Source: a virus (lineage: Duplodnaviria > Caudoviricetes). From it: a DNA stretch of 37,200 bases. Shown in pieces: positions 4,420 through 27,800 of the stretch (position 1 is the stretch's first letter; each line of letters begins with the position of its first letter). Both the position numbers and the translations under genes were made by a program. The notes below the pieces were generated by a model that ran no database searches, had not been told where the DNA came from, and saw only the letters and a list, made by a program, of their open reading frames with translations. The stretch lies in IMG/VR virus record IMGVR_UViG_3300048599_000216, positions 1 through 37,200 of that record; one strand, given 5' to 3'.

Positions 4420-4694
4420 GCGTGAACCTTGCGCAGCGTGTGCTCGACCCATTCGAGCTGCGTACCGAAGTACGGCGCGGCATGAACGATCATCCGCGTC
4501 ATGCCGAACGACCGCGCCATGCGAACGCTGCCGCTAACAAAGCTGGGCGAGCGATCGACGCGCAGCACTGGTGTCAAGCCACGGATGACGATGTCGGACA
4601 CAGTCACACCGGCTTTGTCGAGCTTCACGATCGCGTCGAGAGCCCTGTGCAATGCGGACTCCAAGGCCGTGTTGCCGGGAGAGAGCATCGTCAT
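4416..4694 (-). CDS. Hypothetical protein (92 aa)
   Basis: GGAGG RBS and ATGA overlap with the transposase B stop. Confidence 0.75.
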   Translation of the reverse strand: MTMLSPGNTALESALHRALDAIVKLDKAGVTVSDIVIRGLTPVLRVDRSPSFVSGSVRMARSFGMTRMIVHAAPYFGTQLEWVEHTLRKVHA

Positions 4695-5875
4695 GCTGCA
4701 CCTCCCACCAGGTCGCGAGTGACCTTCGGTGCACCCAACTCGGCGGCGGCGTTCATCGCCTGCGCCAGCGCGTTGTGCACGGCCAGCGGATAGAGCAGCG
4801 ACCCACCGCGCTGGTGCTTGCCGCTGGGCGTCAGGCGCGTGCGGAGCGCGTCGAGGCCGCTGCTGTCGATGATGTCGTCCACGTTCGCGCCAGCGCGCTG
4901 GAAGCGGTGCCGCAGATAGTCCGGCAGATGCTGATCCAGCGGCGCGAGGTGCACCAGCTCGATGCGCTGCGCGACCTCGCGTACCTGCGGGTTGCGCTCG
5001 TCCAGCTTCAGGAGCAATTCGGGCTGGCCGATCAGGATGATCGACACCAGCGGGCGCATTTTGTCTTTCAATTCCAGATAGCGCTTGAGGTGCTTGAGCG
5101 TCGGGATCGGCAGGCAGTGCGCCTCCTCGATCAACAGCGTATGCCGCATGCCGCTGCGCGAGCTTTCGCGCAACACCTCGTGCAGCTGGTGGAAACGCGC
5201 GTCCGGACTACTACGCGGTGGCGCCAGGGGCGCGATGCTGCGCATCATGCACTCGGCGATATGCTGACTGCGCAGCGTCTTGCCGACCGTGTCTTTTTCC
5301 TCCATCGCGAGCACGTACGGCTGGCAAGTGATGATCGACGGCTCGTCCTGCGCAATGCGCTCCAGCAGTTCTTCGCGCAAGGTGGTTTTTCCGGCGCCGC
5401 TCTCGCCGACGACACCGAGGAAACCGCCGTGGCGCACGGTGCTCCACATTGCCTCCCGCACGTAGCGAGCATCCGGCGACAGATAGACGTCATCCGTCTC
5501 GCGGCATTCCGTGAAGGGATTGCGCGCGAGCTTGAAGTGCAGGCGCGCCGCGGGCGTCAGGGTGTGCTTTCGCAGTAACATGGATTCCGTCTCCTCTACT
5601 TCGCAGGTGTGGGGGACAACCGGCCTCGAAGCGTTAGCGCGCTTCGGGGCCTTCTTTTTGGGGGTATGGGGCTCGGTGGAAATGCCGTGGCCGGCGAGCC
5701 AAGCCGCCAAGCGCTCGGCCAGGCCCGACGCATCAAGCGCCGGCCAGATGCCGCGATTGACCAGCCGCGAGACCGCGCCCCGGTCGACGCCGACGCCCGC
5801 GGCGACTGCCGCCAGCGTGATGCGCTGCTCGGCCAGCTGCGCCTTGAGGTTCGGCGGCAGGGGCAGCGCGCTCAT
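4691..5875 (-). CDS. Transposition protein B: N-terminal HTH plus ExeA-like AAA ATPase
   Basis: Walker A GESGAGKT, Walker B LLIEEAH, IILIGQPEL; downstream of the DDE transposase. Confidence 0.93.
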   Translation of the reverse strand: MSALPLPPNLKAQLAEQRITLAAVAAGVGVDRGAVSRLVNRGIWPALDASGLAERLAAWLAGHGISTEPHTPKKKAPKRANASRPVVPHTCEVEETESMLLRKHTLTPAARLHFKLARNPFTECRETDDVYLSPDARYVREAMWSTVRHGGFLGVVGESGAGKTTLREELLERIAQDEPSIITCQPYVLAMEEKDTVGKTLRSQHIAECMMRSIAPLAPPRSSPDARFHQLHEVLRESSRSGMRHTLLIEEAHCLPIPTLKHLKRYLELKDKMRPLVSIILIGQPELLLKLDERNPQVREVAQRIELVHLAPLDQHLPDYLRHRFQRAGANVDDIIDSSGLDALRTRLTPSGKHQRGGSLLYPLAVHNALAQAMNAAAELGAPKVTRDLVGGAA

Positions 5876-6072
5876 GCCTCGCCTGCCTTTCCGCGGCCGG
5901 GGTAGACCTCGGCGAGTTCAGCTCGCAAGAGGACGCACTGATCCGCCAGCTCGCTGAGCTGGGCGACAAAGTACTCGTCGACTTCCCCCCACTGGGCAGC
6001 CATGTCCACCAGGCTGTTGCGGATCGAAGCCAACCGCTTCTTGTGGCGCATGGCCAGCGCACGCGGCGTCAT
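5872..6072 (-). CDS. Hypothetical protein (66 aa) between transposase A and B
   Basis: GGAGG RBS; ATGA overlaps on both sides. Confidence 0.75.
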   Translation of the reverse strand: MTPRALAMRHKKRLASIRNSLVDMAAQWGEVDEYFVAQLSELADQCVLLRAELAEVYPGRGKAGEA

Positions 6073-7877
6073 GCGGCACCTCCGGCCAGGGCGCGCAGTC
6101 CGCCACGCATCAGCGCCACCGCGCAGTCGTCGAGCTGCTCATCCGGCACGCCGTCAGGCCACAACACCGTCATGCGCGCATACAGGTCCGCGTTCCATGC
6201 GCCGCCACGCGCTTCGACGCGACGCTTCAGGCCGCGCGCCATTTCCGCATGCGACAGCAGCGCAGGCGCGTACTGCGGCCGAATGCTCGGGATCGTCGGC
6301 GACGGTTCGACGATGGCCGGCGCTTGTACCGTCGATGGCGTGCCGGCACGCGGCAAGGCTTCCGGCACCTTCGCGTCCCGCCAGGGTTTCGTCGGGTCGA
6401 TGCTGTCGGCGAATGCACGGCGCTTGGCCTTGCGCGCCGCCGCGGCTTCGGCGTCCGTTTTGACGTCCATCGCCAGGCGATCCAGCTCCTTGCGTGCTGC
6501 ATCGACCGGCGTTTCCGGCTGCGCTTTGAACTCGGCGCCGATGATCGCGGCATTGGCCTCGAAGCCGTAGGCACCGAACTCGATCCGCGGCGCCAGGTAG
6601 TGCGCCGGCCGGCCGTCGTCGCCGGTGACCAGCACCCGCAGCGTCGTCGGGTCGAGTGCGTTGATCACGACGTCCAGCGTGCTGTCGTTGAGCACGCCCG
6701 GCAGACCCGACACGTCCCACAGTGCGCCGTCGTGCTTGATGCGGTAGTCACGCACCTTGCGCGCGACCGGTGCCGTCGTCGCTAGAGTGCGAAGCACCTC
6801 AACAGGCGGCGCGAGCTGGCGCTCGCCGATGGTGAGATACGCAGCCTGCCGCGTCGTGCCAGTGCGGCTATGGATCGTCGTGGCGTTGTAGGCGCGGCAC
6901 CATTTCGCGGCCAGCGCGTTGATTTCGGCCAGCGAAGCCACCGGCTTTTGCAGCTTCAGCGCCGCCTCAAAATGGGTCTCGACGACGTACTGCGCATTTT
7001 CCACTTGTCCTTTTGCGCGCGCGTTTCCGACTTCGTTGACGATCAGCTCGATGCACATCGCATCGAGGAAGCTGCGCGTCGTGCCGGCCGTGACCGCGCT
7101 GCCGGGATCGGCCATGAGGTATTTCGGCGAGCCATACATTGGCGAGCCGGCGCGCTCGGTCATCACGTAGATCAGCGCCGACAGCAGATTCGCCGCGCTC
7201 TCGGCGCCCTGGACGTAGAACGCCTCGATGTAGCCGCTCGCATGGTCGGTCACGACGTAGCGCCACAAACGGCGGTCGTTGATCTTGGCGAAGTTGCCCG
7301 GCTTGCCGCGGTAATACACGCGACGATCCATGACCTGGGCGCCGTCGTCCGCGAGGAAATACTGCCGGCTGACCGAGGCGTCGATCTGCCAGCAATAGTT
7401 CGGGTGCGGACTGCGCAAGCGGCTGGCCGGCGTCGGCGCGGCGAGCTGGCCAGGGTGGCAATGGAACTGCACCAGCGACCGACGGATAGCCGAAACGCTC
7501 AGCGGCGTGAATTCGCCCGTCCCGGCATCCACGCGGCCGGCCAGGATCTTTCCGCTCGCGCGCAGCATGCTCACGGCATCCTCCAGCGGCAGTTCACCGG
7601 TGCCGGTCAGGCGCCGGGTCTCTTCCACCGTGGCTGCAATAAGCAGTGCCTCGTCGCGCGTCAGCGCGCAGGCGCCCGCATCGCTGCGCCGCTTGCGCGG
7701 CTTGCTGACGCGAACCTGTTTGAGCCGCGTCAACAGCGTCGGAATCGACACGCCGAGGCGATCAGCCGCCTCGCGGTAGACCGCAGTCTTGCCGCCGTGT
7801 CCAGCCGACTTGGCGGCGTTGGCCACCGCGGCGAGCTCCTCGTACATCGCAGGGGATAGGACGGTCGCCATCGTCAT
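6069..7877 (-). CDS. DDE transposase A (B3/BcepMu type)
   Basis: RKRRSDAG, catalytic motifs CWQIDAS / YLMADPGSA / AKGQVE; ATGA overlap at 7874-7877. Confidence 0.95.
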   Translation of the reverse strand: MTMATVLSPAMYEELAAVANAAKSAGHGGKTAVYREAADRLGVSIPTLLTRLKQVRVSKPRKRRSDAGACALTRDEALLIAATVEETRRLTGTGELPLEDAVSMLRASGKILAGRVDAGTGEFTPLSVSAIRRSLVQFHCHPGQLAAPTPASRLRSPHPNYCWQIDASVSRQYFLADDGAQVMDRRVYYRGKPGNFAKINDRRLWRYVVTDHASGYIEAFYVQGAESAANLLSALIYVMTERAGSPMYGSPKYLMADPGSAVTAGTTRSFLDAMCIELIVNEVGNARAKGQVENAQYVVETHFEAALKLQKPVASLAEINALAAKWCRAYNATTIHSRTGTTRQAAYLTIGERQLAPPVEVLRTLATTAPVARKVRDYRIKHDGALWDVSGLPGVLNDSTLDVVINALDPTTLRVLVTGDDGRPAHYLAPRIEFGAYGFEANAAIIGAEFKAQPETPVDAARKELDRLAMDVKTDAEAAAARKAKRRAFADSIDPTKPWRDAKVPEALPRAGTPSTVQAPAIVEPSPTIPSIRPQYAPALLSHAEMARGLKRRVEARGGAWNADLYARMTVLWPDGVPDEQLDDCAVALMRGGLRALAGGAA

Positions 7878-8800
7878 TCTCCCTGCGCCCAACTCGGCGC
7901 GCCGTGGTCGTTGACGATCGGCAGGCCGAACGCATCGCGTACGCGGCGCAGCTCGCCCATCAGCTCGCCGATGATGCCGGCCATGTACTGGTCGTGCTCA
8001 TCGCCAGAGCTATCCGCGTCACCGGCATCGACCGCGTGTGCGCGCAACTCGGAGAAGCGCTCGAACAGGCTGTCAGCGTCCTCGCCGTGGGCGCTGATGT
8101 CGGCGCGGACCTGCAGCAGTGCCGAGGTGACCCGATCACGCAGCACGGCCTGCGTTTCTGCCGGTGTCGCGCGCTGGCGTTCCAGCTTCGCCTGCCGCAG
8201 TTGCTTCTGCAGCTTCTCGATGTCGCGCTCGCGCTTGGCGGCGCGATCATCCTTGGCGTCAATGTCGGCACGCGCATCGCGAAGGGCCTGACGGAGCTGG
8301 CTGGCACCCATGCGCTCGACGTCGTCGAGCGTGATGCCCGCGACCGATTCGCCCGACTCCAGGGCGGCCAGCTCGTCGTCATCCAGAACGGCCAGCTCCA
8401 GCACCTTGGCCTGAGACCCGGCGGCCTTCAAAAGCGACACGCTGTCACTTTTCGAGAACTTCAGCGCTACGGACATGAACCGCTGAGCGGTGCGCCTATG
8501 GGTGCCGCGAGCCTCGCATTGCTGCAGGAAATCGCCGTGCGGCGTCTGCTCCTTAATCAGCAGCAGGGCGCGGCCCATCGTCAGGATGTCGTCGACGGAA
8601 CGGCGCTGGCGGTGTTCGTAGACGCCCCACAGCGATTCCGTGTCCAGCGCGCCGGCGTAACCGATCGAGCTCGCCAGCTTTGCGATGGCGGCATCCGCTG
8701 CATGCACCTGCGCCTCGCGCTCGGCAATGGCCTGCGGCGTCTTTTCGGCGATCTGAATGTCCGTGCCGGGCTCGGCCGGCTGGAGTTTCTTGCGTGCCAT
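7874..8800 (-). CDS. DUF3102-like protein with C-terminal coiled coil
   Basis: MGRALLLIKEQTPHGDF...RTAQRFM motif; position upstream of transposase A as in B3-like phages. Confidence 0.85.
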   Translation of the reverse strand: MARKKLQPAEPGTDIQIAEKTPQAIAEREAQVHAADAAIAKLASSIGYAGALDTESLWGVYEHRQRRSVDDILTMGRALLLIKEQTPHGDFLQQCEARGTHRRTAQRFMSVALKFSKSDSVSLLKAAGSQAKVLELAVLDDDELAALESGESVAGITLDDVERMGASQLRQALRDARADIDAKDDRAAKRERDIEKLQKQLRQAKLERQRATPAETQAVLRDRVTSALLQVRADISAHGEDADSLFERFSELRAHAVDAGDADSSGDEHDQYMAGIIGELMGELRRVRDAFGLPIVNDHGAPSWAQGE

Positions 8801-12972: not shown

Positions 12973-13273
12973 TTCCGGCAAGCCCCGCCACGAACAGGTG
13001 CGCTGGGTGCTGCTGCTCACGCTCAACAACGCGCGTCCGCGCGGCGCAGGCGGTAGCGTGCTGCTCGGCACTGTGCAGGGCGCGCTGTATCCGGACGCCA
13101 CGCTGCTGGAGATTCGCCGCGAACTCGAATACCTCGAAAGCCGCCGCCTGGTGGAAGTCGAGGAGTCGCCGGCCGGGCCGTGGCTGGCGCGCCTGACGCG
13201 CTACGGCGTGGACATCGCCGAGTACACCATCGACTGCGCGCCGGGCATCGCTCGCCCGCCGAAATACTGGTGA
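12962..13273 (+). CDS. Mu gp26-like winged-helix protein
   Basis: VRWVLLLTL...IRRELEYLESRRLV...ARLTRYGVDIAEY...PGIARP. Confidence 0.85.
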   Translation: MNIDSGKPRHEQVRWVLLLTLNNARPRGAGGSVLLGTVQGALYPDATLLEIRRELEYLESRRLVEVEESPAGPWLARLTRYGVDIAEYTIDCAPGIARPPKYW

Positions 13274-13276
13274 CCT

Positions 13277-13819
13277 ATGCCCCCGCCGAGCAAGATTGAT
13301 CTGCTGCCGGAGGAAGTCCGCCGCGAACTGGATGAGCGCATTGTCGCCGCCGGCTTCGGCGGCTATGTCGCGCTGTCGGAATGGCTCGCGGAACGCGGCT
13401 ACGAAATCGGCAAATCCACCTTAGGTATGCACGGCAAGAAGATGGAGCGCCGGCTGAGCGCCGTTCGGGCCAGCACACAGGCCGCCGCGCTGTTCGAGGA
13501 GGCGGCACGCGACGACACCGATGCGCGCAGTGCCGCTATCTTCGCCCAGGTGCAGTCCGGGCTTTTCGACGCGCTGGTCGATTTCGCCGAAGCCGAGGAC
13601 GAAACCGACCCGGTCAAACGCGCGGCCATCTATGCCCGCATCGGCAAGGACTTTGCCGCGGCCGCGAGCGGATCGCGTGCCGGCAAGAAGTTTGCGCGTG
13701 AGGTTCGCGAGCAGATCGCCGCCGCGCTGGCGGCGATGAAGAAAGAAGGGTTCGACGCCGGCACGCTGGAAGAGGCCGAGCGCCGCATCAGCATCTATCT
13801 GCCCGCCAACAACCGATGA
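13277..13819 (+). CDS. Terminase small subunit, DUF3486 / Mu gp27-like
   Basis: SKIDLLPEEVRRELD...LSEWLAERGYEIGKSTLG motif; directly upstream of TerL. Confidence 0.88.
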   Translation: MPPPSKIDLLPEEVRRELDERIVAAGFGGYVALSEWLAERGYEIGKSTLGMHGKKMERRLSAVRASTQAAALFEEAARDDTDARSAAIFAQVQSGLFDALVDFAEAEDETDPVKRAAIYARIGKDFAAAASGSRAGKKFAREVREQIAAALAAMKKEGFDAGTLEEAERRISIYLPANNR

Positions 13820-16724: not shown

Positions 16725-17958
16725 CACGGCGCAGCGTGACCCGGCCGTCGCCGGTGTGCTGAAGCGCCCGTTTGCCGAACAGGTCGCGTTCTTCCGCGGC
16801 AAGCTCGGCAACCTGGTGCCGACGCAGCGCTGGACCGACATGCTGCGCGAGCAGCACGACCGCGCCTTTATGGTGGCCGGCGCTCAATCCGCCGACTTGC
16901 TGGCGGGGCTCGCTGCCGCGGTTGATCGCGCGATTACCGAAGGCAAGAGCATCGACGCATTCCGCAAGGACTTCGCCGCGCTCGTCGAAAAATCCGGCTG
17001 GGACTACACCGGCGGTTTCGACTGGCGTACCCGCACGATCTACCGCACCAACCTGATCACCAGCTACGCCGCTGGCCGACAGGCGCAGCTACGCGATGGC
17101 AAGTTCCCCTATCGGATGTACAAGCACGGCGACCCTCAGACGCCGCGCCTGCAGCACGAGCGCTGGGACGGTCTCGTGCTGCCCGCAGATCATCCGTTCT
17201 GGATTCGACACTCGGCGCCGAACGGTTGGGGCTGCACATGCCGCACCATCGGATTGCGGTCACCGGAAGATGCCCGGCGGCTTGGCGGCGATCCATCGAA
17301 GGCGCTGCCGGACGATTGGGACGCTGTCGATCCGAAGACAGGTGCGCCGGTCGGAATCGACAAAGGCTGGGACTACACGCCCGGCGATACCGTCAGCGAT
17401 ACCGTGGCGCAGATGGCGGCCAAGGCGCAGCAATGGGATGACGCGCTGGCGAAGGCATACATGCAGGGCGTGCCGGACAGTCAGCGCGATGCACTGGCCA
17501 CGGCCTACCGATCGTTGCCTTCGGTCGCGGACGACGCGCGGCTCTACGCACAGAAGATCCTCGAAGGGCGCACGCATCTGGACATTCCGCCGCATCGCAC
17601 GCTCGGTCTCACTACATCCGACCAGGCGAGCGCCATTCGCGAAGCGCTGGGTATCAATGTGGCTAGCTTCGACTGGTCGCTCGATCAGCGTGCCGTCAAG
17701 GAACTCGGCAACGCGCAGGCCGACACGGCCACTGGCCAACGCGCCATCACGCCGCGCGACTACGTGCGACTACCACAGCTCCTCAACGGCGTGGATGGTC
17801 TCTCGATCGAAAGCGGCCTGGTTCACGTCGAGAAGGTGTTCGGCGAGGAGCGGCACGTTGCCGTGTTCGCGCCGCTAAGCAATCGCCGCACGCTGGCGCT
17901 GAAGTCGTTGACCGTCTACCGCGAGAGCAGCAAGCGCCCGACCCCCGGAAAACCATGA
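16717..17958 (+). CDS. MuF (gp30-like) head morphogenesis protein with C-terminal extension
   Basis: PFAEQVAFFR.K, RAFMVAGA, TIYRTNL..SY.AGR, PNGWGCTC, GIDKGWDY.PG; about 190 extra C-terminal residues. Confidence 0.92.
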   Translation: MASTAQRDPAVAGVLKRPFAEQVAFFRGKLGNLVPTQRWTDMLREQHDRAFMVAGAQSADLLAGLAAAVDRAITEGKSIDAFRKDFAALVEKSGWDYTGGFDWRTRTIYRTNLITSYAAGRQAQLRDGKFPYRMYKHGDPQTPRLQHERWDGLVLPADHPFWIRHSAPNGWGCTCRTIGLRSPEDARRLGGDPSKALPDDWDAVDPKTGAPVGIDKGWDYTPGDTVSDTVAQMAAKAQQWDDALAKAYMQGVPDSQRDALATAYRSLPSVADDARLYAQKILEGRTHLDIPPHRTLGLTTSDQASAIREALGINVASFDWSLDQRAVKELGNAQADTATGQRAITPRDYVRLPQLLNGVDGLSIESGLVHVEKVFGEERHVAVFAPLSNRRTLALKSLTVYRESSKRPTPGKP

Positions 17959-18494
17959 TCACCGAAAAGATCGAAGTCGACGACGACGATGTCCGATCGC
18001 TGTTTGCGCGACTGCGTGCTGCGGCAACGGACCTGACGCCGCTGATGCAAGACCTCGGCGAGTATCTGACCGAATCCACCAAGCAGCGATTCGCAACGTC
18101 GATTGGTCCCAGTGGTCGCGCATGGGCGCCGAACGCGCAAAGCACGTACGTACGCCTGGCGAGCAAGCACAAGAGTTCCAGCGGCGCAGACGGGCGTATC
18201 AACAAAGCCGGCGCGGCTCGCGTGATGGGTAAGAAGCCGCTGATCGGCGAAACCAAATCCCTGGTCGGCACGCTCTTCTATCGCGCCTGGCCCGGCTTCG
18301 TGGACATTGGCAGCCCGATGGAATATGCCGGTGTGCAGCAGCGCGGCGCGAAGAAGCACAGTTTCTCCGGTGGCAAGACACCGTGGGCTGACATCCCGGC
18401 ACGTCCGTTCCTCGGTATCAGCGACGAGGACGCGCAGGCGATCGTTGAACTCGGCGAGCAACATCTACGCGACGCCGCTGTTCGTCCGAAATGA
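17955..18494 (+). CDS. Mu gpG-like virion morphogenesis protein
   Basis: TPLMQDLGEYL..ST.QRF...P.G..W, YAGVQQ.G, IPARPFLGIS. Confidence 0.92.
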   Translation: MITEKIEVDDDDVRSLFARLRAAATDLTPLMQDLGEYLTESTKQRFATSIGPSGRAWAPNAQSTYVRLASKHKSSSGADGRINKAGAARVMGKKPLIGETKSLVGTLFYRAWPGFVDIGSPMEYAGVQQRGAKKHSFSGGKTPWADIPARPFLGISDEDAQAIVELGEQHLRDAAVRPK

Positions 18495-18684
18495 GGTATT
18501 TTCCCGCGGCCGCCTGTGCGGCCGTGTCGGCGTTTTGAGGCGCTATCCGCGACGCTGATACCTGCTGAGGGGCGATCCGCGCTGAAACCCCGCGTGTCAC
18601 GCGCGGAATGCGGCATCACGATTCCCGTCTACGCGTTTCGTCGCTGCAAGGACTCCGCGCTCACGTAGCGCCCGCGAGAAAAGT

Positions 18685-18728
18685 TCGGAACCGGGGCCGA
18701 TTACCCGCGACGCCCCGATGCGGACCAT
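18685..18728 (+). promoter_or_regulatory. Putative activator-dependent late promoter for the head/tail operon
   Basis: TCGGAACCGGGGCCGAT-N17-TGCGGACCAT; same motif and spacing as 11522. Confidence 0.75.
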
Positions 18729-18736
18729 GCACCGAC

Positions 18737-19879
18737 ATGGACGCCGCCACCACCACCGACATCGAAATCTTCCGCGCCGGTCAGCACATCGACATGCACG
18801 GCCGCACGTGGAATATCACGCGTGCCGATTTGGCCGCTATCGCGAGCGGCTATGACCCGGCCAAGCACGAAGCGCCGCATGTCATCGGTCACCCGGAAAT
18901 CGCCGCTCCGGCGGGTGCCTGGGTGAAAGCACTGAGTGTGGACGGCGACAGCCTCATCGCCAAGACGCACCAGATCGACCCAGCCTTCGCCGACATCGTC
19001 AACTCGGGCCGCTACAAGAAGCGCAGCTCGTCGTTCTTGCTGCCCAACTCTCCGGGCAACCCCACGCCGGGCCAGTACTACCTCAACCATGTCGGCTGGC
19101 TCGGCGCGACGCCGCCTGCCGTAAAGGGATTGCGCGACGCGCAATTCGCCGCCGCCGATCAGTGCGTCGAATTCGCCAGCGATCGGCGCTGGGGCTTCCG
19201 CGACGTGGCCAGCATGTTCCGCCGCCTGCGCGACTGGCTCATCGAACGTGACGGCGCTGATGCGGCCGAACTGGTCATTCCGACTTGGCAGATCGACTCG
19301 CTGATCGAAGCCGCGCAGCCCGACGCTGCCCCCGCCGAAACCGCTTCCCTTCCTGGCCCGGCGTTCGCCGCGCCTCACACCGAGGAAACTACCGTGTCCG
19401 AATCTCAGACCGCCGACTTCGCTGCGCGCGAACAGCAGTTGAACCAGCAGGCTGCCAACCTGCAGGCGCGTGAACAGGCCATCGCGGCGCGCGAGCAGGA
19501 ATCGCGCCGTGCCGATGTCGCGGCGTTCGCGACGAGTCTGGTGCAGTCGGGACGGCTGTTGCCGCGCGAAGCGGCGACCGTCACCGAGCTGCTGCTGGTT
19601 CTGCCTGCAGACAAGCCGCTGAGCTTCGCGGCCGGCGACGGCACCACCACGACCGTGCAGCCGGCGCAGGCGTTACGCGAGCTGCTCACGAGTTTGCCGA
19701 AGCGCGTCGACTACACCGAGAAGTCGGCGGTTACCGCTGCGCCGGTCGCGTCCTTCGCCGCGCCGCTGGGCGAAAGCGTCGATGCCTCGCAGCTCGAACT
19801 GCACGCCCGTGCCTCGACTTACCAGAGCCAGCACCCCGGCATGTCCTGGCTGGCTGCCGTCAAAGCCGTCGGCGGCTGA
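18737..19879 (+). CDS. Prohead protease/scaffold (Mu gpI-like)
   Basis: IEIFRAG.H, YDP..HEAP.VIGHP, G.YKKRS.SF, YL.HVGWLGA.PPAVKGL. Confidence 0.92.
   Translation: MDAATTTDIEIFRAGQHIDMHGRTWNITRADLAAIASGYDPAKHEAPHVIGHPEIAAPAGAWVKALSVDGDSLIAKTHQIDPAFADIVNSGRYKKRSSSFLLPNSPGNPTPGQYYLNHVGWLGATPPAVKGLRDAQFAAADQCVEFASDRRWGFRDVASMFRRLRDWLIERDGADAAELVIPTWQIDSLIEAAQPDAAPAETASLPGPAFAAPHTEETTVSESQTADFAAREQQLNQQAANLQAREQAIAAREQESRRADVAAFATSLVQSGRLLPREAATVTELLLVLPADKPLSFAAGDGTTTTVQPAQALRELLTSLPKRVDYTEKSAVTAAPVASFAAPLGESVDASQLELHARASTYQSQHPGMSWLAAVKAVGG
19394..19879 (+). CDS. Probable in-frame internal scaffold protein (Mu gpZ analogue)
   Basis: GAGGA RBS followed by an in-frame GTG at 19394, at the start of the coiled-coil half of gpI. 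Confidence 0.65.
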   Translation: MSESQTADFAAREQQLNQQAANLQAREQAIAAREQESRRADVAAFATSLVQSGRLLPREAATVTELLLVLPADKPLSFAAGDGTTTTVQPAQALRELLTSLPKRVDYTEKSAVTAAPVASFAAPLGESVDASQLELHARASTYQSQHPGMSWLAAVKAVGG

Positions 19880-19903
19880 TCTCGTCACACCCAGGAGCAA
19901 GTC

Positions 19904-20248
19904 ATGACCCAGAAGATTTCCATTTTCTCGCTGGCGATCGTTGCCAGCGCGGCGATCGAAGCCGAGCGTTTTGTCGGCGCCGACGGTGCCTATGCTACGG
20001 CGGCCGGCACCAGTGTCGGTGTTTCGACCACGAAGGCGGCGGCCGTCGGCGAGCGGTTCAACGCCGACGTGCTCGGCACCACGATCGTTACCGCGGGCGG
20101 CGTCATCGCGAAGAACGCCTATCTGCAGGTCGGTGCCAACGGCAAGGCCGTCACGCGCACCGCGGGTGTGTCGGTGGCGCAGGCCCTTCAGGCCGCCGCC
20201 GCCGATGGCGATCGCATCGAAGTGCTGCTGATTCCGAACGCGCCCTGA
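19904..20248 (+). CDS. Capsid cement/decoration protein (DUF2190-like)
   Basis: Small Ala/Gly-rich protein ending ALQAAAADGDRIEVLL, between scaffold and capsid genes. Confidence 0.85.
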   Translation: MTQKISIFSLAIVASAAIEAERFVGADGAYATAAGTSVGVSTTKAAAVGERFNADVLGTTIVTAGGVIAKNAYLQVGANGKAVTRTAGVSVAQALQAAAADGDRIEVLLIPNAP

Positions 20249-20297
20249 CGCACTGCACGTCGCCGCGCACCCGATTGCCCCTTTCGAGAGATTACCC

Positions 20298-21254
20298 ATG
20301 ACTCAGCAGACCGCTGCACAGTCCCGCGTCATCGACCCCATTCTGACCACGCATGCGCGTGGCTACGTGCGCCCCGGCAACGTGGGCCATCACCTCTTTC
20401 CGAGCGCCGAAGTCGGCATCTACGGTGGTCAGATCCTCACCTTCGGCAAGGAAGGTTTTCGTCGCTACAACACCAAGCGCGCGCCGGGTAGCCCGACGAA
20501 ACGCGTGACGTTCGGTTACGACGGCGAGAAATACGCGATCGTCCCGAGCGCGCTCGAAGCGGTCGTGCCGGACGAAACCGCGAACGACGCGCTGAAGGTT
20601 CCGGGTGTCGACCAGGCCGGCGACTCGGTCGATCTGATCCTGGACGTGTTCGCGCTGGAGCATGAATGCGAGTGCGCGGACATTGCACGCAATCCGGCGC
20701 TGTACGACGTCGATCACAAGGTCGCGCTCCTCGGTGCCGACCGCTGGCGCGGCGCCAACGGCGATCCGACCGCGGATGTCACTGCCGGCAAGAACGCGAT
20801 CCGCAAGTCGATCGGCATCCGCCCGAACACGATCCTGATTTCCGATAGCGCGTTCTCGGCGCTGGAGAGCAACGCGAAGATCCAGGCGTACATGGATCAC
20901 CGCAGCATCCCCGCGCTGACGGCGGAAGTCATCGCGAAGATGTGGCAGATCCCGAACGTCGTTATCGGCGAGTCGGTGGTCGCCAGCGGCCAGGCCGACG
21001 ACTTCGGCGACGTATGGGGTCACGACGTGATCCTCGCCTACGTCGCGCCGCCGACGGGCAGCAACCGTCGCAGCAACGCGCGGCCGAGCTACGGCTACAC
21101 CTACACGATCAAGGGCCATCCGAGCGTGCGCGCCCCGTATCGCGACGAGAACCGCGTGTCCTGGGTGTACCCGGTCAGCTGCGATCGCACGCCGGTCCTC
21201 AGCGGCGTCACCGCGGGCTACCTGATCCAGAACGCGGGCGCCGATCCCGCGTAA
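20298..21254 (+). CDS. Major capsid protein
   Basis: RVIDPILT.HARGY, FGKEGF..YNT.RAPG, PSYGYTY motifs; 318 aa; synteny. Confidence 0.9.
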   Translation: MTQQTAAQSRVIDPILTTHARGYVRPGNVGHHLFPSAEVGIYGGQILTFGKEGFRRYNTKRAPGSPTKRVTFGYDGEKYAIVPSALEAVVPDETANDALKVPGVDQAGDSVDLILDVFALEHECECADIARNPALYDVDHKVALLGADRWRGANGDPTADVTAGKNAIRKSIGIRPNTILISDSAFSALESNAKIQAYMDHRSIPALTAEVIAKMWQIPNVVIGESVVASGQADDFGDVWGHDVILAYVAPPTGSNRRSNARPSYGYTYTIKGHPSVRAPYRDENRVSWVYPVSCDRTPVLSGVTAGYLIQNAGADPA

Positions 21255-21341
21255 CGCAAACGCACCCCCGAGAAAGGGAACGACCCCGATGACGCCGTCG
21301 TGACCGCCGGGAGAGACCGGCATTTCTTCAGGAGCCCCGCC

Positions 21342-21611
21342 ATGTCCAAACCCAACGCCGAACTGTTCTATGCGGTGCTGTCGCCGTTCAAGTTCCGCGG
21401 TGCGGTCGTGAAGCCGCCCACGCTGGTGCCGATGAGCGTCGAGGAAGCGCGCCCGTACCAGACCGCTCGCGTGCTCAGTGAGGACGCCGCGGATGCCTTG
21501 CCGCCGGAGCCGATCACCGATGCCCCGCAGACCCCCAAGGCCGAAGCGCCGCCGCCGGCACAGCCGGCTACCAAGGCCGCGTCGGCCGCCAACAAGAAGG
21601 CCGTGAAGTAA
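21342..21611 (+). CDS. Hypothetical head-associated protein with Pro/Ala/Lys tail
   Basis: AGGAG RBS; directly after the capsid gene. Confidence 0.75.
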   Translation: MSKPNAELFYAVLSPFKFRGAVVKPPTLVPMSVEEARPYQTARVLSEDAADALPPEPITDAPQTPKAEAPPPAQPATKAASAANKKAVK

Positions 21612-21835
21612 TGGAAAACCAGCATCGCCAGATTCGCGGCTATCGCGAACTCGACGCCGCCGAGATCGACCTGGTCAACGCGATCAAGGACCGCGGCGCG
21701 GACCTCGGCCTGGTCGTCGAAGCGACCGAAGCGCTGGCCAGCGTCGACAAGCGCGCGCTCGCGATCGCCAAGACGCAGTTGCAGACGGGCCTCATGTGGC
21801 TCGTGCGCAGCGTCACGAAGCCGGAGAGCTTCTAA
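21611..21835 (+). CDS. acb2: Acb2-family cyclic-oligonucleotide sponge (anti-CBASS)
   Basis: MENQHRQIRGYREL...EIDLVNAIK and ALAIAKTQLQTGLMWLVRSVTKPESF match the N- and C-terminal signatures of Acb2 (MDNQH..I.GYR.L...EI..MN.IK ... LAI.KT..QTG.M...RA.A.P.SF). Confidence 0.9.
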   Translation: MENQHRQIRGYRELDAAEIDLVNAIKDRGADLGLVVEATEALASVDKRALAIAKTQLQTGLMWLVRSVTKPESF

Positions 21836-21836
21836 G

Positions 21837-22364
21837 ATGTACTGCACGCTCGCCCAACTGGCTGACGCGAATCTCGCACGCGAGTTCGCTCAGCTCACCA
21901 CGCCCGAACGGTATGCCGTCGTCAGCGACGAACTGTTCGAGGCTGCGTTGCGCGGCGAGGACCTTAGCCGCTTCGACCCCGCCGACGTTGCCGTTGCGGG
22001 GGAAGCCCAGGCGCGCGTCGTCGCAGCGCTCGTCAGTGCCGATGGCGTGATCGAAGGGTATCTGGCGCTGCGCAAGCCGCATCCGTATGCGCTGCCGCTC
22101 AACCCCGTGCCGGGCATCGTCTCGGTGTGGGCTCGGCAGATCGCCCGCTACATGCTCAACAAGGACCGCGTCGGCACGCGGGAAGAATCCGACCCGGTCG
22201 TGCGTGACTACCGCGACGCGATCCGTTTCCTGGAACAAACGCGCGACGGCAAGTTCAGCCTCGGCGCCAATGATCCGCTGCCGCCGCCGAGCGCGGGCGC
22301 ACCGGAGTTCTGTGCGCCGCCGCGTGTGTACACGCAGGAAACCCTGCGGGACTACGGCCAGTGA
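21837..22364 (+). CDS. Head-tail adaptor, Mu gp36-like (DUF1320)
   Basis: MYCT...A...IEGYL..R..YALPL..VP...IARY.L...V.RDYRDAIRFLE...GK.SLG. Confidence 0.92.
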   Translation: MYCTLAQLADANLAREFAQLTTPERYAVVSDELFEAALRGEDLSRFDPADVAVAGEAQARVVAALVSADGVIEGYLALRKPHPYALPLNPVPGIVSVWARQIARYMLNKDRVGTREESDPVVRDYRDAIRFLEQTRDGKFSLGANDPLPPPSAGAPEFCAPPRVYTQETLRDYGQ

Positions 22365-22795
22365 TCGGGCCGTTTCCCCTTGATGGCGTCATTCAGCGCG
22401 CCACCAGCATCGCCGGCCTGCGCCTGGTCGGCAACGCCGCTGATCTGCAAGCCGCGCTGGAAACGCCGCCGAACGCGGTGCCGGCCCTGTATGTGCTGAG
22501 CGAGGAAGCCGGTGACCAGGCGATCGGCGCGACCGGCCTACCGATGCAGAACGTTACCGTCGTCGTGAAGCTCGTGCTCTGGGTGCGAAACGCCGGCGGC
22601 GCGGCACGCGTGGTCGCGGCGATGACCGAGTTCGAGCGCGCCGTGCGCAGCGTCTTTTTCGGCTGGCGACCGAATGCGGAATTCCGCCCGTTCACGATAC
22701 GGGCCAGCGGCGCCGAGCAGGCGTACGGCGACCACATGGTCCGCCAGCTGCTGCTGTCCACCAGCTACCGCCACACCACCGAGGCCACTCCATGA
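22361..22795 (+). CDS. Tail terminator/completion protein (gp37-like)
   Basis: Synteny; PALYV and FFGWRP motifs. Confidence 0.75.
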   Translation: MIGPFPLDGVIQRATSIAGLRLVGNAADLQAALETPPNAVPALYVLSEEAGDQAIGATGLPMQNVTVVVKLVLWVRNAGGAARVVAAMTEFERAVRSVFFGWRPNAEFRPFTIRASGAEQAYGDHMVRQLLLSTSYRHTTEATP

Positions 22796-23001
22796 ACAAG
22801 CCCAACCCGCATGCCTGTACCGCATTCGACATGCCGTTCCCGACGCGCGGCGGCGAGTACGTCAGCACCGGCCGCGACATCGCGCGCGTCAAGCCGGAGC
22901 CGGCCCAGCCGCCCGAGGCGCTCGTGGAACCGTCGAACGCGATCGACACCGAATCCGCCGCGCGTCGCGGCAAGAAGCGCGAGGAGAGCAGCAATGGCTG
23001 A
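22792..23001 (+). CDS. Hypothetical protein (69 aa, PTRGGEY motif)
   Basis: Overlaps both neighbours; typical small gene ahead of a tail tube gene. Confidence 0.7.
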   Translation: MNKPNPHACTAFDMPFPTRGGEYVSTGRDIARVKPEPAQPPEALVEPSNAIDTESAARRGKKREESSNG

Positions 23002-23989
23002 ACCCCAGATCGAGTACTTCACCCAGCGCGGCGTGCTGGTCAAGATGGAAGCCATCGCCAACACCGATCCGATTCTGGACCCGGCGACTGACGGCATCCG
23101 GTTCTACGACGGCGCGGCCGGTACCGAAATCGAGAAGAAGGAGCGCACGCCCGATCGTCCGTTCTGGGGCGGGCGACCGTTCAAGGCGATCAAGAAGCGC
23201 GCCTTTATCGAGGGAACGTTCGATCTGTTCCCGCCGACGACGCCCGGCGCGGCCGGTGCCACGGGCAATGCGTTCTGCGAGCGCATCCTGCTGCCGTCCG
23301 GCTTCGCCATCACGAAGTCGCTGCCCAGCAAGCTCACGCGCTACAACCCGATCAGCCACAACATCCCCGCGGCCTGGTCGCGGTTCCACCAGGGCGGTGA
23401 AGTCCTGAATCTGCAGAGCGCCCGCCACACGCTGAGCGCTGTGCGCATGGCGATCGACGACGGCATGTCCGCCAAGGCGCGCCTGCAGGGCAACTACGAC
23501 ACGATCCTGGAAGGCGTTGCGCCGGAAATCCCGGTCAACGAAACCGAATCGACGGTCGCGACCTGGGACAACTCGGTGGCGTTTCTGAGCACCGTCGATG
23601 GCGACGTGACGGACCTGGAATTGCGCTGCAAGCACCTGGAATGGGATTCCGGTTCCGAGGTCACGTCGTCGATGTTCACGGGTCTGCGCCTCAACGGCCA
23701 CAAGGACCGCACGCCGACGGCCAAGTGCCTGCTGCTGCGGCCGCGCAACGCCGACATCAATCTGACGACCGTCCGCGATGCGAACAGGCTGATCACGATC
23801 CGTTTCCGCACCTACGAGAGCAACACCAAGGTCGGGCTCTACAGCGAGCACGGCGTGCGCATGCAGATCGAAAACATCCAGCGACAGGACATCGACGGCT
23901 ACTACGGCTACGAGATTTCCGGCCCGTGCGTCCCGTCCAGCACGGGCGGCGACGAAGTGTTCATCGCCTTCGGCGACACGACGCCGTAA
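22994..23989 (+). CDS. Major tail tube protein
   Basis: 331 aa, beta-rich, directly upstream of the chaperone and tape measure genes; GAGGAG RBS; no sheath gene. Confidence 0.8.
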   Translation: MAEPQIEYFTQRGVLVKMEAIANTDPILDPATDGIRFYDGAAGTEIEKKERTPDRPFWGGRPFKAIKKRAFIEGTFDLFPPTTPGAAGATGNAFCERILLPSGFAITKSLPSKLTRYNPISHNIPAAWSRFHQGGEVLNLQSARHTLSAVRMAIDDGMSAKARLQGNYDTILEGVAPEIPVNETESTVATWDNSVAFLSTVDGDVTDLELRCKHLEWDSGSEVTSSMFTGLRLNGHKDRTPTAKCLLLRPRNADINLTTVRDANRLITIRFRTYESNTKVGLYSEHGVRMQIENIQRQDIDGYYGYEISGPCVPSSTGGDEVFIAFGDTTP

Positions 23990-24040
23990 CCCTCTTCCCA
24001 CCAACGCACTACGCGGCACCGCCGCATCAGGAGAAAAACC

Positions 24041-24436
24041 GTGTCCGAGAAACTCGACGTCAACCTGCTCGCCACCAGCACCATGACCGCAACCATTCAG
24101 TGCCAGCTCCCCGGTAACGGGGCTGACGTCTGGAAGCCCTTTTCGTTCAAGGCGACGTACAGGGTGCTGGACGAACAGGAGTCCGACGAACTCGACGAGA
24201 AGGGCCTGACGATCGGCGACTACTTACGCGAGGTCGTCATTTCGGTCGAGGGCGTCCCGGCCGGGACCGACCCGAAGACCGGCGAGGAGGTATCGCCGCT
24301 CGAATGCGCCATTCGCAACCGCTTCACGCAGGCGGCGATGTGGGGTGACTACACCGGGCGCTATGGCAAGAACGCGAGCGATGCCGTGATGCGGCACCAG
24401 TCCGGAAAAAACTCGCGGCGATCGCGCAAGTACTAG
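24041..24436 (+). CDS. Tail assembly chaperone (G-like)
   Basis: AGGAG RBS; ends just after a slippery heptamer. Confidence 0.85.
   Translation: MSEKLDVNLLATSTMTATIQCQLPGNGADVWKPFSFKATYRVLDEQESDELDEKGLTIGDYLREVVISVEGVPAGTDPKTGEEVSPLECAIRNRFTQAAMWGDYTGRYGKNASDAVMRHQSGKNSRRSRKY
24406..24412 (+). promoter_or_regulatory. Programmed -1 ribosomal frameshift site A AAA AAC
   Basis: Correctly phased X XXY YYZ heptamer; the -1 frame is open to 24849. Confidence 0.85.
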
Positions 24437-24849
24437 CCGGCGGCGCGATCGACGAGACCGTCGAGCCATGGATTCTCCCGCCGCCGGATGACGGCGGCGA
24501 GGAGGACGAAGAGGACGACGACGAAGGCAATGTTCCGTGGGCCGGTGAAGGCTATGAACGCGTGGAGAAAACGCGGCCTGTCGGCGAGATATGGGTCGGT
24601 GTCCTCCCGGAAAACATCGGCGTCGTGCGCGTGTTTGAGCGCTGCCAGCCGCAGGTCGCTATCGGTATGGGCGTGATCTGGCAGGGCGCCAGCGCGTCGG
24701 AAGTGCGTGCCGCCTGCCTGATGTCCCGCGTGCCGCGCACGGACTGGCCCCGATACCTCGATGGCGTGCAGCTCATGGCGCGTGTGGTGGCTGGCATCCG
24801 CAACGCTGAGGAGGAGAAACACGCGAAGCGGCGCAAGAAGGCGAAGTGA
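24412..24849 (+). CDS. Tail assembly chaperone frameshift extension (GT-like, DUF1799-like)
   Basis: -1 frame LAAIAQVLAGG...DDGGEEDEEDDDEG...VLPENIGVVRVF...VQLMA; ends just before the tape measure gene. Confidence 0.8.
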   Translation, partial: LAAIAQVLAGGAIDETVEPWILPPPDDGGEEDEEDDDEGNVPWAGEGYERVEKTRPVGEIWVGVLPENIGVVRVFERCQPQVAIGMGVIWQGASASEVRAACLMSRVPRTDWPRYLDGVQLMARVVAGIRNAEEEKHAKRRKKAK

Positions 24850-24899
24850 TCGGCGCGCAGTAGCGCGCCGCATACCGCAACTGGAATGGAAGGAACCCT

Positions 24900-27800
24900 G
24901 TGGCCGAATTCGCCGTAAACCTGCGCATCAACGCCGACGGAAAGGTTGCCGTCAAGGTGGTGAACCAGGTCGCAGAGGCCAGCCAGCGCATGGGCGTAGT
25001 TGCACGCCAAGGCGGCCAGAACGCGGCACAGGGCATGGCATCCGCCCATGCGCCTACGGCTCGTCTCTCATCGTTGGCCGAGGACGCGAAGAACCAGCTC
25101 GTCAAGCTGGTTGCGGTCGCTGGCGGCGCCGTAGCGGTCCTGCGTGGCCTGGCCTCTGCGGCGGACGCATGGGCGAATCTCACCTCGCGCATCAAGCTCG
25201 CGACGAAGACGAAAGAACAGTACGCGATCGCAGAGGCTGAAGTCTTTGCGATCAGTCAACGCACGTCTACCCAAGTCGATGCAACCGCCACGCTTTACAC
25301 CAAGCTGGCCAACTCGATGTCGGGGACGGCTACGACCCAGCGTGAACTGCTGGGACTGACCGAGACGATCAATCAGGCATTCGCTCTCAGCGGCGCGAGT
25401 TCGGTAGACCAAGCCAATGCCATCCGGCAGCTATCGCAAGCCTTCGCTGGCGGCGTGCTGCGCGCCGAGGAGTACAACTCGGTTGTCGAACAAGGCGAGC
25501 GCCTATCACGAGCGCTTGCCGCCGGCCTGGGCCTCACTGCCGGCGAGCTGAGAAAGCAAGTCAACGACGGCACCGTGACCGTCGATCGCATGGTCGCTGC
25601 CTTGAAGAACCAGGCGAACGCGATCAAATCCGAATTTGACCAGCTGCCGCTGACGATCGGTCGTGCGTGGACGCAGCTCGAAAATACGGTCCTCAAGACG
25701 GTCGGCGAGCTGGCCAAGACCACCGGCGTCGCCACGTTGGTCGCGAGCTCGTTGGTTGTGCTTGGCGGCAATCTCAATCTCGTCGTGGTCGCACTGCTGG
25801 CCTTCGCGGCCGCGCGCATGGCGTCCGTGGCTCAGGCTGCCCTGCAAGATGCCGCGCAGCGCCGCGTGGCCGCGAGCGCGCTGGCCGAGGCGGAAGCACA
25901 GGTAGCCAAGGCACGCGCCATGGTGCTGGTCGGCGGTAGCACTGCCGCGCTGGCCAGCGCAGAACTTCGCCTTGCCGCTGCGCAGGAGGCAGCGACAGCG
26001 GCTGGAGTCGGCAAGCTCGGTTTGCTCAGCCGTATGGGCTCCGGTCTGCTCGCGTTGGCGGGTGGCCCGATTGGCGTCGCCATGCTCGCGATCGGTGGCT
26101 TGGTCGCCGCGATGCAGGCGATGAGCAATGCCGAGGCGGAGCGGGTGCGCCAGTTCAACGCCGGCGTCAAAGCGACGAACGACGCTGCACAGAGTATCGA
26201 CGGCCTTGTCGCGCAAATTGAGCGCGCGAAGCAGCACTACGACCAGTTGCCCGACTTCGCCACGATGGCGCGGGAATGGACCAATGCGACCGAGCAGCTC
26301 GCAGCTGCGCAAGCAAACCTCAATGCCAAACGAGCGGAAATGGAAGGGCTTGAAGCGCGTGTGGCCTACGCGCAGCAGTCAAGTGCGGAGGGCGCTGGGA
26401 CGGCGCTGCTCTCGTTGGTACCGAAACTAGAACAAGTCAAGATCGAATACACCGCGCTCGACGACGTGGTGAATCGCCTTTCGGGATCGCTGAAGAATCT
26501 CAACTTCGATGCGGTATTTAACCCTACAGCCGGCCAAGTTTCAGGTGATCAGGCGAGACAGGCTCTTGCGCTGCTGACCGCAGAAGCCAAGAAGTCCGAA
26601 GCGGAGTTCGAGAAAGCGAAACGGGGGCAGATCGGCTATTGGACCGAGCTGGCCAATACGCGTGTCGCGGCAGCGCGAGCGGCTAATGCGTCGGCGGCGC
26701 AGATCGCGACCATTCAGGCTGAAAACGAAGCGCTATTGAAGACGATCAGCAGCACGATGAAGAAGGAGACCGCGACCAAGTCGGTCGCATCTGCTGGTGC
26801 TGAACTGGTGGCCAAGCTCAAGGAAGAAATCGCCGTCTACGGTCAGAGCGGCACCGCACTGGATCGCTACCGGCTGTCGCAGGCGAAGCTGACGCCGGCG
26901 CTCCGCAGCCAGGGTGAAGCCGCGATTGCGCTGCGCGAAGCCTGGGACCGCTACGCGAAAACGCTGAAGCCCGCCGTCGAGGCTATGGAAAAGATCAATG
27001 CCGGCAGCGCGGATCTGGATGCCGAACTGGCGAAGGGACGTGACGTTCTAGCGGGCCTCGACGACGCCCAGGTGCAGTACAACGAGAGCGTGCGCGAATC
27101 GGTTGCGCTCTACGAGGCTGCACTGGCTCTTGGCCCTCCAACGCAGAAGATGCAGGAGGCGGAAGAGGCGCGCCTGCGCAAGCTGGCTGATCTGCGTGAT
27201 CAGCGTCGAGCGGTCGACCAGCATCAGGAAAGGACGCGCGCGGCGCTTGATGCCGAGCGCCAGCAACTTCAGCGCTCGCAGCAGATGTGGGGCGACTACG
27301 CAGACGCGGTATTCGATGCCGTGTCTCGCAGCGGCAATACACTGAAGAACCTGGCCAACAACCTGCGCGACGTTGTGACGCGCATGCTCGCCGAATGGTT
27401 CCGCACGCGCGTGATCGGCACATTCACGGGCGGCGGTGCCGGTGGTGGCGGTGGCGGCAGCTGGTGGGGTGCCGCGTTGAACGCGGTATTCGGCGGCGGC
27501 AGCGGTGGTGCTGGCGGTGGCGGTGGTGGCGCGGTCGGCAGCGGCGGGAGCCCGGCCGGCGGCAACGCGTGGGGGTCGTTCATCGGGGCCGGCGTGAGCT
27601 ACGCCGCTGGCGGCGGTGGCGCTGGCAGCGGGGCGAACCTGTTCACAAACGCTCTGACGTCCGTCGCGGGCAACTACGTTCAGAACTACTTCTTCGGCAG
27701 CGGCGCTTCGTCGCTGGCCGGAAACGCGGCTGCCGGCGGCATTGATCTATCAGCGTCCGCGGGCAATGCGTACAGCCTGTCGTCGAACACCGCGGCCGGC

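What the first reader, a model, noticed from the sequence alone, without database searches (positions are those of the whole stretch)
21611..21835. Minimal Acb2 anti-CBASS sponge embedded in the late head operon of a transposable phage
Seen: 74-aa ORF with both Acb2 signature blocks, coupled by TAATG to the upstream gene and 1 nt from gp36. It lacks roughly 20 central residues relative to the ~90-aa Pseudomonas phage Acb2 as I recall it. Established: Acb2 hexamers sequester CBASS cyclic di/trinucleotides, and late virion-assembly components are implicated in CBASS activation. Inference: co-expression with capsid and protease supplies a stoichiometric sponge when and in the amount needed. The deletion may change the ligand range.
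Basis: partly seen in the sequence, partly recalled or inferred. Interest (0 to 1): 0.85.

Follow-up and report, generated by a model that had tools for sequence, protein, structure and literature searches.

The report
Ordinary short Acb2 sponge after capsid
A transposable phage carries a short gene of the known Acb2 family, whose protein likely soaks up the host's CBASS alarm nucleotides, at the same spot behind the capsid gene as in the already studied phage JBD67, so the gene itself is ordinary; related phages fill that spot with other sponge-family genes too.

Summary
21611-21835 is a real 74-aa Acb2 (PF24729, 64 bits; best sequence and fold match PaMx33 Acb2). It overlaps the upstream gene (TAATG), ends 1 nt before gp36, and sits in a B3-like transposable phage. 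The residues of both published pockets are kept: Y11/K26/L14/P71 (dinucleotides) and R48/A51/I52/T55 (trinucleotides). The claimed novelty is mostly in print. JBD67, where acb2 was knocked out, has the same capsid-small gene-acb2-gp36 order, and the discovery preprint notes that adjacency and calls it non-obligate. The 74-aa form is not a special deletion: it is the common length among close relatives. A gap-free 74-aa homologue (about 47% identical, counted by eye) was shown to block two CBASS systems but not Thoeris or Pycsar, and 50-68-aa homologues work too. 'Stoichiometric with capsid' is unsupported, and close relatives carry the same gene outside the head operon. The new lead is comparative: 25 of 67 related capsid-gp36 intervals hold an extra gene, 20 of these from known sponge families (16 Acb2 from several lineages, 4 Acb4). 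Two unnamed small families there are candidate new sponges. Verdict: new member of a known kind; low interest.

The parts
21611..21835 (+). acb2, 74-aa short-hairpin form; cyclic-dinucleotide pocket residues Y11, L14, K26, P71 and cyclic-trinucleotide pocket residues R48, A51, I52, T55 present
   Evidence: PF24729 64.1 bits; PDB 8h2j E 5e-13, profile E 8e-28; AF2 model pLDDT 90.9, helices 16-40 and 47-69; Foldseek top hit 8h2j E 3e-4; residue roles from PMC10312549 and 10.1101/2025.08.24.671296
21342..21611 (+). small post-capsid gene (89 aa, Ala/Pro/Lys-rich tail); its stop overlaps the acb2 start (TAATG)
   Evidence: No Pfam or PHROG hit itself; N-terminal part matches the gene in this position in many relatives at 41-63%; a gene in the same position in L086 is DUF7210 (30.8 bits)
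21837..22364 (+). Mu gp36-type head-tail adaptor, 1 nt after the acb2 stop
   Evidence: PF07030 85.8 bits; phrog_195
21280..21329 (+). conserved spacer element between capsid and the small gene: a predicted 5-bp stem, then a GC hairpin (21306-21321) with a T-rich tail; possible step-down signal (inferred)
   Evidence: Pattern in 20 of 38 loci examined, one of them (L099) a likely false match; terminator-like call at 21306-21321, though such calls are not above chance in this region, 10 against 11.3; weak covariation at one pair of 5; no Rfam match
20298..21254 (+). major capsid protein
   Evidence: phrog_1005 E 7e-81
19904..20248 (+). 114-aa head gene (PHROG label: head scaffolding protein)
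   Evidence: phrog_673 E 3e-19
18608..19879 (+). head maturation protease (true start probably the ATG at 18737)
   Evidence: phrog_976 E 6e-119 from residue 44 of the long ORF; sequence
6069..7892 (-). DDE transposase (context: transposable phage)
   Evidence: phrog_310 E 4e-86
4691..5875 (-). transposition AAA ATPase (context)
   Evidence: phrog_296 E 1e-66; PF13401

Best explanation
The gene encodes a short-form Acb2 that is likely made late from the head-tail operon and likely assembles into the family's hexamer, which would bind and hide CBASS cyclic dinucleotides (3'3'-cGAMP, cUA) and possibly cA3/cAAG so that the host's effector is not switched on. Shown here: family membership, fold, pocket residues, gene order and overlaps. 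Inferred from relatives: dinucleotide sequestration and anti-CBASS activity (about 0.9), trinucleotide binding (about 0.65), late co-transcription and translational coupling (about 0.8). The gene is an accessory insert in an interval that these phages often leave empty; late placement is probably useful but is not required.
For: Family and fold; VIA-align Z 8.2, rmsd 2.9, 73 aligned to 8h2j and Z 8.0, rmsd 3.0, 72 aligned to 7uq2, the top two rows, though Z of this size is weak for a helical hairpin. Pocket residues map one to one on PaMx33 Y11, L14, K26, P90, R67, A70, I71, T74 (with 13, 14, 46); Y, K, R and T are all present in 103 of 107 distinct 72-76-aa relatives. [quoted passage not shown] JBD67 acb2 in the same slot is needed against CBASS and binds cGAMP and cA3. 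CBASS escape maps to capsid and protease genes (abstract of 10.1101/2023.05.21.541620). Self-association model, 3 copies: score 0.76, best control 0.45, runs agree in at least 89% of contacts, pLDDT at least 78; the mark was reached by 20 of 30 solved homodimers and 1 of 23 single chains; solved Acb2 complexes exist, so this shows likeness only.
Against: No binding, expression or plating data for this protein. The host is unknown and the held genome is only the 37.2-kb window, so host CBASS could not be looked for. Residue conservation does not guarantee cA3 binding: T4 Acb2 D61R still did not bind cA3 because pocket geometry matters, and no cA3 system was in the panel that tested Acb2_26. The complex model gave a confident interface mainly between two of three copies and does not test the hexamer. 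10 of 46 Acb2 homologues tested inhibit type I Thoeris, so ligand range in this family is not fixed.
Confidence: 0.88

Rival explanations
1. The late head-operon position is selected because capsid assembly triggers CBASS, and the interval is a recurrent landing place for signal sponges; the window's gene is one instance.
For: Of 67 interval clusters (from 194 of 238 gp36 loci that also held the capsid), 25 have an extra gene and 20 of these are sponge families: 16 Acb2, 4 Acb4/PF13876 (Pfam checks; PF13876 = Acb4 per 10.1101/2024.12.30.630793). The interval's Acb2s are not one clade (17 against 51 rows, AU p 0.0003; at least 4 label changes forced by well-supported branches). Nine further Acb2 loci lie just upstream of a Mu-type portal gene, also late.
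Against: 42 of 67 clusters have no extra gene, as do B3, JBD18 and two Stenotrophomonas phages. Only 2 of the 80 best Acb2 viral loci have capsid or gp36 matches within 3 kb, and 5 related Mu-like contigs put it on the opposite strand beside the lysis genes. The gp36 seeds came from Acb2-bearing phages, which inflates the Acb2 count; the tree has only 74 columns and one very long branch. PaMx41 acb2 is a middle gene. An easy insertion site with a strong transcript would give a similar picture.
Confidence: 0.5
2. The short form has a shifted ligand range, binding gcADPR (anti-Thoeris) instead of or besides CBASS signals.
For: Acb2_43, a 75-aa family member, binds 3'cADPR and not CBASS signals; 10 of 46 tested homologues inhibit type I Thoeris.
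Against: Acb2_43 uses terminal beta-strands and other residues. The model here has no strands and aligns better to PaMx33 and T4 Acb2 (Z 8.2, 8.0) than to Acb2_43 (9ptq: Z 6.5, rmsd 3.1, 58 aligned, 12% identity). Acb2_26, the close 74-aa homologue, did not inhibit Thoeris I, II or IV.
Confidence: 0.08
3. It is a structural or virion-packaged head protein, or works mainly for the prophage, and the sponge fold is incidental.
For: It lies among head genes and is coupled to them.
Against: The gene is absent from most related intervals; JBD67 lacking acb2 is viable without CBASS; the same protein occurs in unrelated phages and positions.
Confidence: 0.04

Closest known systems
Acb2 of Pseudomonas phage JBD67 (Beetrevirus, B3-like; JX495043 22985-23311)
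   Same: Same family, same phage type, same order capsid-small gene-acb2-gp36, same stop/start overlap (TGATG); both pockets' residues present.
   Different: 108 aa against 74 aa, 36% identity; the window's protein does not group with the long Pseudomonas forms.
Acb2_26 of Hadary et al. (PMC12393519, Table S2 row 26)
   Same: [quoted passage not shown]
   Different: Another phage, context not examined; cA3 not tested; no structure.
Acb2 of Pseudomonas phage PaMx33 (PDB 8H2J, 8IXZ) and T4 Vs.4 (7UQ2)
   Same: Best sequence and fold matches; helical hairpin; all named pocket residues of PaMx33 are kept.
   Different: 19 more residues at the hairpin tip in PaMx33; lytic phages; T4 Vs.4 lacks the R and does not bind cA3.
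Uncharacterised 74-aa gene of phage Lsp-JY19 (PP438411, 21938-22162)
   Same: 61% identical, same gene order, TAATG overlap and 1-nt gap to gp36.
   Different: Annotated as hypothetical; not tested.
Tad1 and Acb2_43 (anti-Thoeris sponges sharing PF24729)
   Same: Shared hairpin; Tad1 binds cyclic trinucleotides with a like R/T pair.
   Different: The window's protein lacks Tad1's N-terminal beta-sheet and Acb2_43's terminal strands.

Membership tests
Acb2 | Match to PF24729 above the curated cut-off and best match to solved Acb2 | tested here: met
   64.1 bits against 27; 8h2j E 5e-13
Acb2 | Two long antiparallel helices after a short N-terminal arm | tested here: met
   Model H16-40, H47-69, pLDDT 90.9; top Foldseek rows all Acb2/Vs.4
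Acb2 | Cyclic-dinucleotide pocket residues Y11, K26 (with L14, P90) | tested here: met
   Y11, L14, K26, P71 (with 13, 46)
Acb2 | Cyclic-trinucleotide pocket residues R67, A70, I71, T74 | tested here: met
   R48, A51, I52, T55; residues only, pocket geometry not tested
Acb2 | Interlocked homohexamer | tested here: inconclusive
   Three-copy model passes the mark (0.76 against 0.45) but shows mainly a dimer interface, may rest on likeness to solved Acb2, and six copies were not modelled
Acb2 | Binds signals without cleaving them and rescues phage from CBASS | not testable with these tools
   Shown for the 74-aa homologue Acb2_26 (rescue) and for JBD67 Acb2, not for this protein
Tad1 | N-terminal antiparallel beta-sheet ahead of the hairpin, forming the gcADPR pocket | tested here: not met
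   74 aa, no strands in the model; profile against CmTad1 8kbb E 0.88, hairpin only; feature from PMC10680739 passages
Acb2_43-type anti-Thoeris Acb2 | N- and C-terminal beta-strands with T4/H5/L6/V7, K19, K55 binding 3'cADPR | tested here: inconclusive
   No strands predicted for the monomer, but the N-terminal 10 residues have pLDDT about 60; 12% identity over 58 aligned to 9ptq
B3-like transposable phages | DDE transposase, transposition ATPase, GemA, Mu-type portal/F/gp36, leftward early and rightward late genes | tested here: met
   order matches JBD67. Genome ends and host DNA tails not examined in depth.

The most novel reading that the evidence does not exclude
The interval between capsid and gp36 in B3-like transposable phages is a recurrent late-expressed sponge slot, filled repeatedly by unrelated Acb2 lineages and by Acb4. 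Its two unnamed occupants would then be new immune-signal sponges: a 73-aa beta protein (L056, L057; 3,746 representatives at E 0.001; one member fused to a Tad1-type hairpin; weak likeness to Mop/TOBE oxyanion-binding folds) and an 85-aa protein (L086, L101). The slot could be mined for more. The four slot Acb2s that have lost Y11 and K26 but keep the R and, in three of four, the T of the trinucleotide pocket (L280, L314, L334, L352) may be trinucleotide-only sponges.
Probability: 0.35. Interest if true: 0.62.

Novelty: new member of a known kind. Interest (0 to 1): 0.27.

Why it matters
The gene itself adds one more member to a family of over 4,000 known homologues, in an arrangement already published for JBD67, so it matters little. 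Two things could matter. First, whether the common 74-aa form binds cA3 has not, in the papers I read, been measured; this protein keeps the full residue set and is a clean test of what the variable hairpin tip does. Second, if the capsid-gp36 interval is a sponge slot, gene position in a late operon becomes a way to find new anti-defence families, with two candidates in hand, and it makes the link between virion assembly and CBASS triggering testable by moving the gene.

Tried and rejected
Artefact or wrong strand: an antisense 159-aa ORF (21368-21847) overlaps the gene and its frame is also open over the 222 nt in three relatives, but codon-position differences and all family matches favour the + frame; the antisense product was not searched. 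'Minimal deletion variant' rejected. Host CBASS: not testable, G000 is the window alone. Expression: no RNA holder listed; the two runs laid were contigs, probably DNA, of other strains, and say nothing on expression. Promoter scan found 0 sigma-70-like sites in 9000-25000. Spacer element: no Rfam match at E 1 for the window or E 10 for 21220-21370, only weak opposite-strand hits in L049; RNAalifold gave no consensus structure; four motif spellings found in 0 papers. My recalled guesses (C4-type RNA, Mu-gpT-DE) were not borne out by those scans. 73-aa slot protein: no Pfam hit above E 0.1, no PDB sequence match of note, no Foldseek hit at E 0.001, best VIA Z 6.0; the five named Lockin sequences share a different motif and three motif spellings were absent from the 7 supplement files of PMC12265669, so I do not call it Lockin. 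Only 1 of 35 longer members scanned had a Pfam sponge domain, at 27.5 bits against a cut-off of 27. 85-aa slot protein: only phrog_2293, unknown function. The L044 Acb4-family protein has no useful PDB sequence hit. Earlier scan notes: none by six words, by sequence or by place.

Full report
Observation. Its ATG shares an A with the TAA of the 89-aa gene before it, and gp36 starts 1 nt after its stop. It scores 64.1 bits on PF24729 (cut-off 27) over the whole 58-position profile. Its best PDB matches are PaMx33 Acb2 (8h2j, E 5e-13) and T4 Vs.4 (7uq2). A profile of 53 sequences aligns to PaMx33 Acb2 end to end with one 19-residue gap. Codon-position GC and the pattern of differences to three relatives mark it as a coding frame. 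The window is a B3-like transposable phage and is the whole of the held genome, so the host is unknown.

What it is. The AlphaFold2 model (53-sequence alignment) has mean pLDDT 90.9 and two helices, 16-40 and 47-69. Foldseek's first nine rows are Acb2 or Vs.4 chains; VIA-align ranks 8h2j (Z 8.2, rmsd 2.9, 73 aligned) and 7uq2 (Z 8.0, rmsd 3.0, 72 aligned) first, with unrelated helical proteins at Z 7.0 and below, so the fold result alone would be weak. Cao et al. (PMC10312549; I read parts 1-2 of 7) give Y11 and K26 for dinucleotides and R67, A70, I71, T74 for trinucleotides; Hadary et al. (10.1101/2025.08.24.671296; parts 1-2 of 7) add L14 and P90. All are present here as Y11, L14, K26, P71 and R48, A51, I52, T55. 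Among 107 distinct 72-76-aa relatives, 103 keep all of Y, K, R and T. A three-copy model scored 0.76 against a best control of 0.45 (contacts agree at least 89%, pLDDT at least 78; 20 of 30 solved homodimers and 1 of 23 single chains reach that mark), mainly through a two-copy interface; solved Acb2 complexes exist, so it shows likeness, not binding.

Is it 'minimal'? No. 36 of 53 protein hits and 72 of 80 viral loci are 74 aa, and most of the top 60 of 485 phage records match without a gap; these counts lean towards the query's length, and the spread listing shows many longer forms. The discovery preprint describes conserved ends and a middle of varied length (10.1101/2022.03.30.486325, passages). 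Table S2 of Hadary et al. (PMC12393519 supplement file 3, parts 1-3 of 5) lists a 74-aa homologue, Acb2_26, that lines up with this protein without gaps (35 of 74 identical, counted by eye). [quoted passage not shown] Homologues of 50, 62, 64, 67 and 68 aa also inhibited cGAMP CBASS. No cA3 system was in that panel, so trinucleotide binding by the short form stays open. T4 and CHI14 Acb2 do not bind cA3, and the authors blame the unkinked helix before the R position; here that helix begins only one residue before R48, which removes the clash, and Tad1 binds cA3 with a like R/T pair (PMC10680739, passages). I put cA3 binding at about 0.65; this is inference.

Is the position new? No. JBD67 has portal, Mu F, morphogenesis gene, protease, small head gene, capsid, small gene, a 108-aa acb2 with a TGATG overlap, then gp36. 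The preprint states that acb2 is adjacent to the JBD67 capsid gene, that its position is highly variable elsewhere, and that the link is not obligate; deleting it sensitised JBD67 to CBASS and escapers mapped to the capsid. Lsp-JY19 has the same order with a 61% identical 74-aa gene. B3, JBD18 and two Stenotrophomonas phages have no extra gene there.

How it most likely works. Shown: gene, family, residues, order, overlaps. Inferred: it is transcribed with the late genes, since from capsid to tail tube the only gap over 1 nt is the 87-nt spacer after the capsid, and is translated in coupling with its neighbours; the protein likely forms the Acb2 hexamer and sequesters CBASS dinucleotides, perhaps trinucleotides, at the stage when assembly proteins are implicated in triggering CBASS (abstract only of 10.1101/2023.05.21.541620). 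The spacer holds a conserved element (20 of 38 loci by pattern, one likely false) with a terminator-like hairpin (such calls are not above chance in the region) and weak covariation at one of five pairs (6 cells, 8 of 500 shuffles as high). It could lower expression downstream of the capsid; that is a guess. Against necessity of the position: only 2 of the 80 best Acb2 viral loci have a capsid or gp36 match within 3 kb, nine lie upstream of a Mu-type portal, and five related Mu-like contigs carry it on the opposite strand by the lysis genes. A known cost is that Acb2 can trigger Panoptes defence (PMC13712596, passages).

The comparative lead. I gathered 238 gp36 loci; 194 also held the capsid gene and fell into 67 clusters at 85% DNA identity; the other 44 were dropped. 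42 clusters have only the small post-capsid gene or nothing (checked). 25 have an extra gene: 16 Acb2 (own HMM; Pfam-checked for five of these loci or contigs), 4 PF13876, which is the Acb4 family (10.1101/2024.12.30.630793, passages), 2 of a 73-aa family, 2 of an 85-aa family and 1 unnamed block. A tree of 17 slot and 51 other Acb2 proteins (44 of the 80 loci, picked by hand, plus 7 others; 'other' means no capsid or gp36 match in the flank) rejects one slot clade (AU p 0.0003; at least 4 changes forced), with 74 columns and a long branch as caveats. The gp36 queries were seeded on Acb2-bearing phages and I made no count for other intergenic sites, so enrichment is suggested, not measured. 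The 73-aa family is large, beta-rich, has one Tad1-type fusion at a marginal score and is not Lockin by motif (10.1101/2025.07.12.664507, parts 1-4 of 9; supplement searches). I found no paper describing this slot as a recurrent sponge site in the listings; the library lacks most subscription papers, and Hadary's large homologue table (supplement file 2) was not read. One earlier AI note (e1-5915896) reports Acb2-type genes beside head genes in other phage lineages; I did not test it and do not count it as support.

Comparison and verdict. It works like, and by every feature testable here is, an Acb2; it is not a Tad1 (no N-terminal sheet) and is unlike Acb2_43. Binding, hexamer and rescue are untested for this protein. 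Novelty: new member of a known kind. Interest 0.27. Most novel reading not excluded: a recurrent late sponge slot with two new sponge families, probability 0.35, interest 0.62 if true.

Noticed in passing
L056:3273-3497, L057:3274-3498 (family alignment A5): 73-aa beta-rich protein in the acb2 position of two related phages; large unnamed phage family (3,746 representatives); AF2 pLDDT 91, five strands and one helix; weak Mop/TOBE-like fold matches; one member, P0122, is fused to a Tad1-type C-terminal domain. Candidate sponge.
   Followed up: partly
L086:3241-3498, L101:3237-3497: 85-aa unnamed protein (phrog_2293, weak) in the acb2 position of two related phage clusters.
   Followed up: partly
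L049:3159-3497, L044:3528-4001 (same contig as L103), L119:2595-2969, L230:2037-2423: Acb4-family (PF13876) genes between capsid and gp36; in L119 it lies before the small gene, not after it.
   Followed up: yes
L280, L314, L334, L352 (about 2253-2474): 73-aa Acb2-family proteins as the only gene between capsid and gp36, with H and T in place of Y11 and K26 but the trinucleotide R kept; very long branch. Possible altered ligand range.
   Followed up: partly
window 21280-21329: Conserved two-stem element after the capsid stop in about half of the related loci examined; no Rfam match; role unknown.
   Followed up: partly
L130, L134, L143, L150, L204: Related Mu-like phages carry a 74-aa acb2 on the strand opposite the late genes, between the lysis genes and the repressor region; in L130 it starts head to head with the lysin gene.
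   Followed up: partly
L131, L135, L140, L142, L147, L148, L151, L153, L154: acb2 lies shortly upstream of a Mu-type portal gene, a second late position; several of these contigs are near copies.
   Followed up: no
L050:2310-3501: Block of two or three unnamed genes (237, 63 and 112 aa) inserted in the same interval.
   Followed up: no
window 24900-31394 and 34859-35785: A 2164-aa ORF in the tape-measure position, long for a phage of this size (not searched), and a DNA methyltransferase near the right end (phrog_56).
   Followed up: no
window 10094-11412: Three ORFs (145, 125, 156 aa) between the repressor and the lysozyme with no Pfam or PHROG match; possible accessory genes.
   Followed up: no
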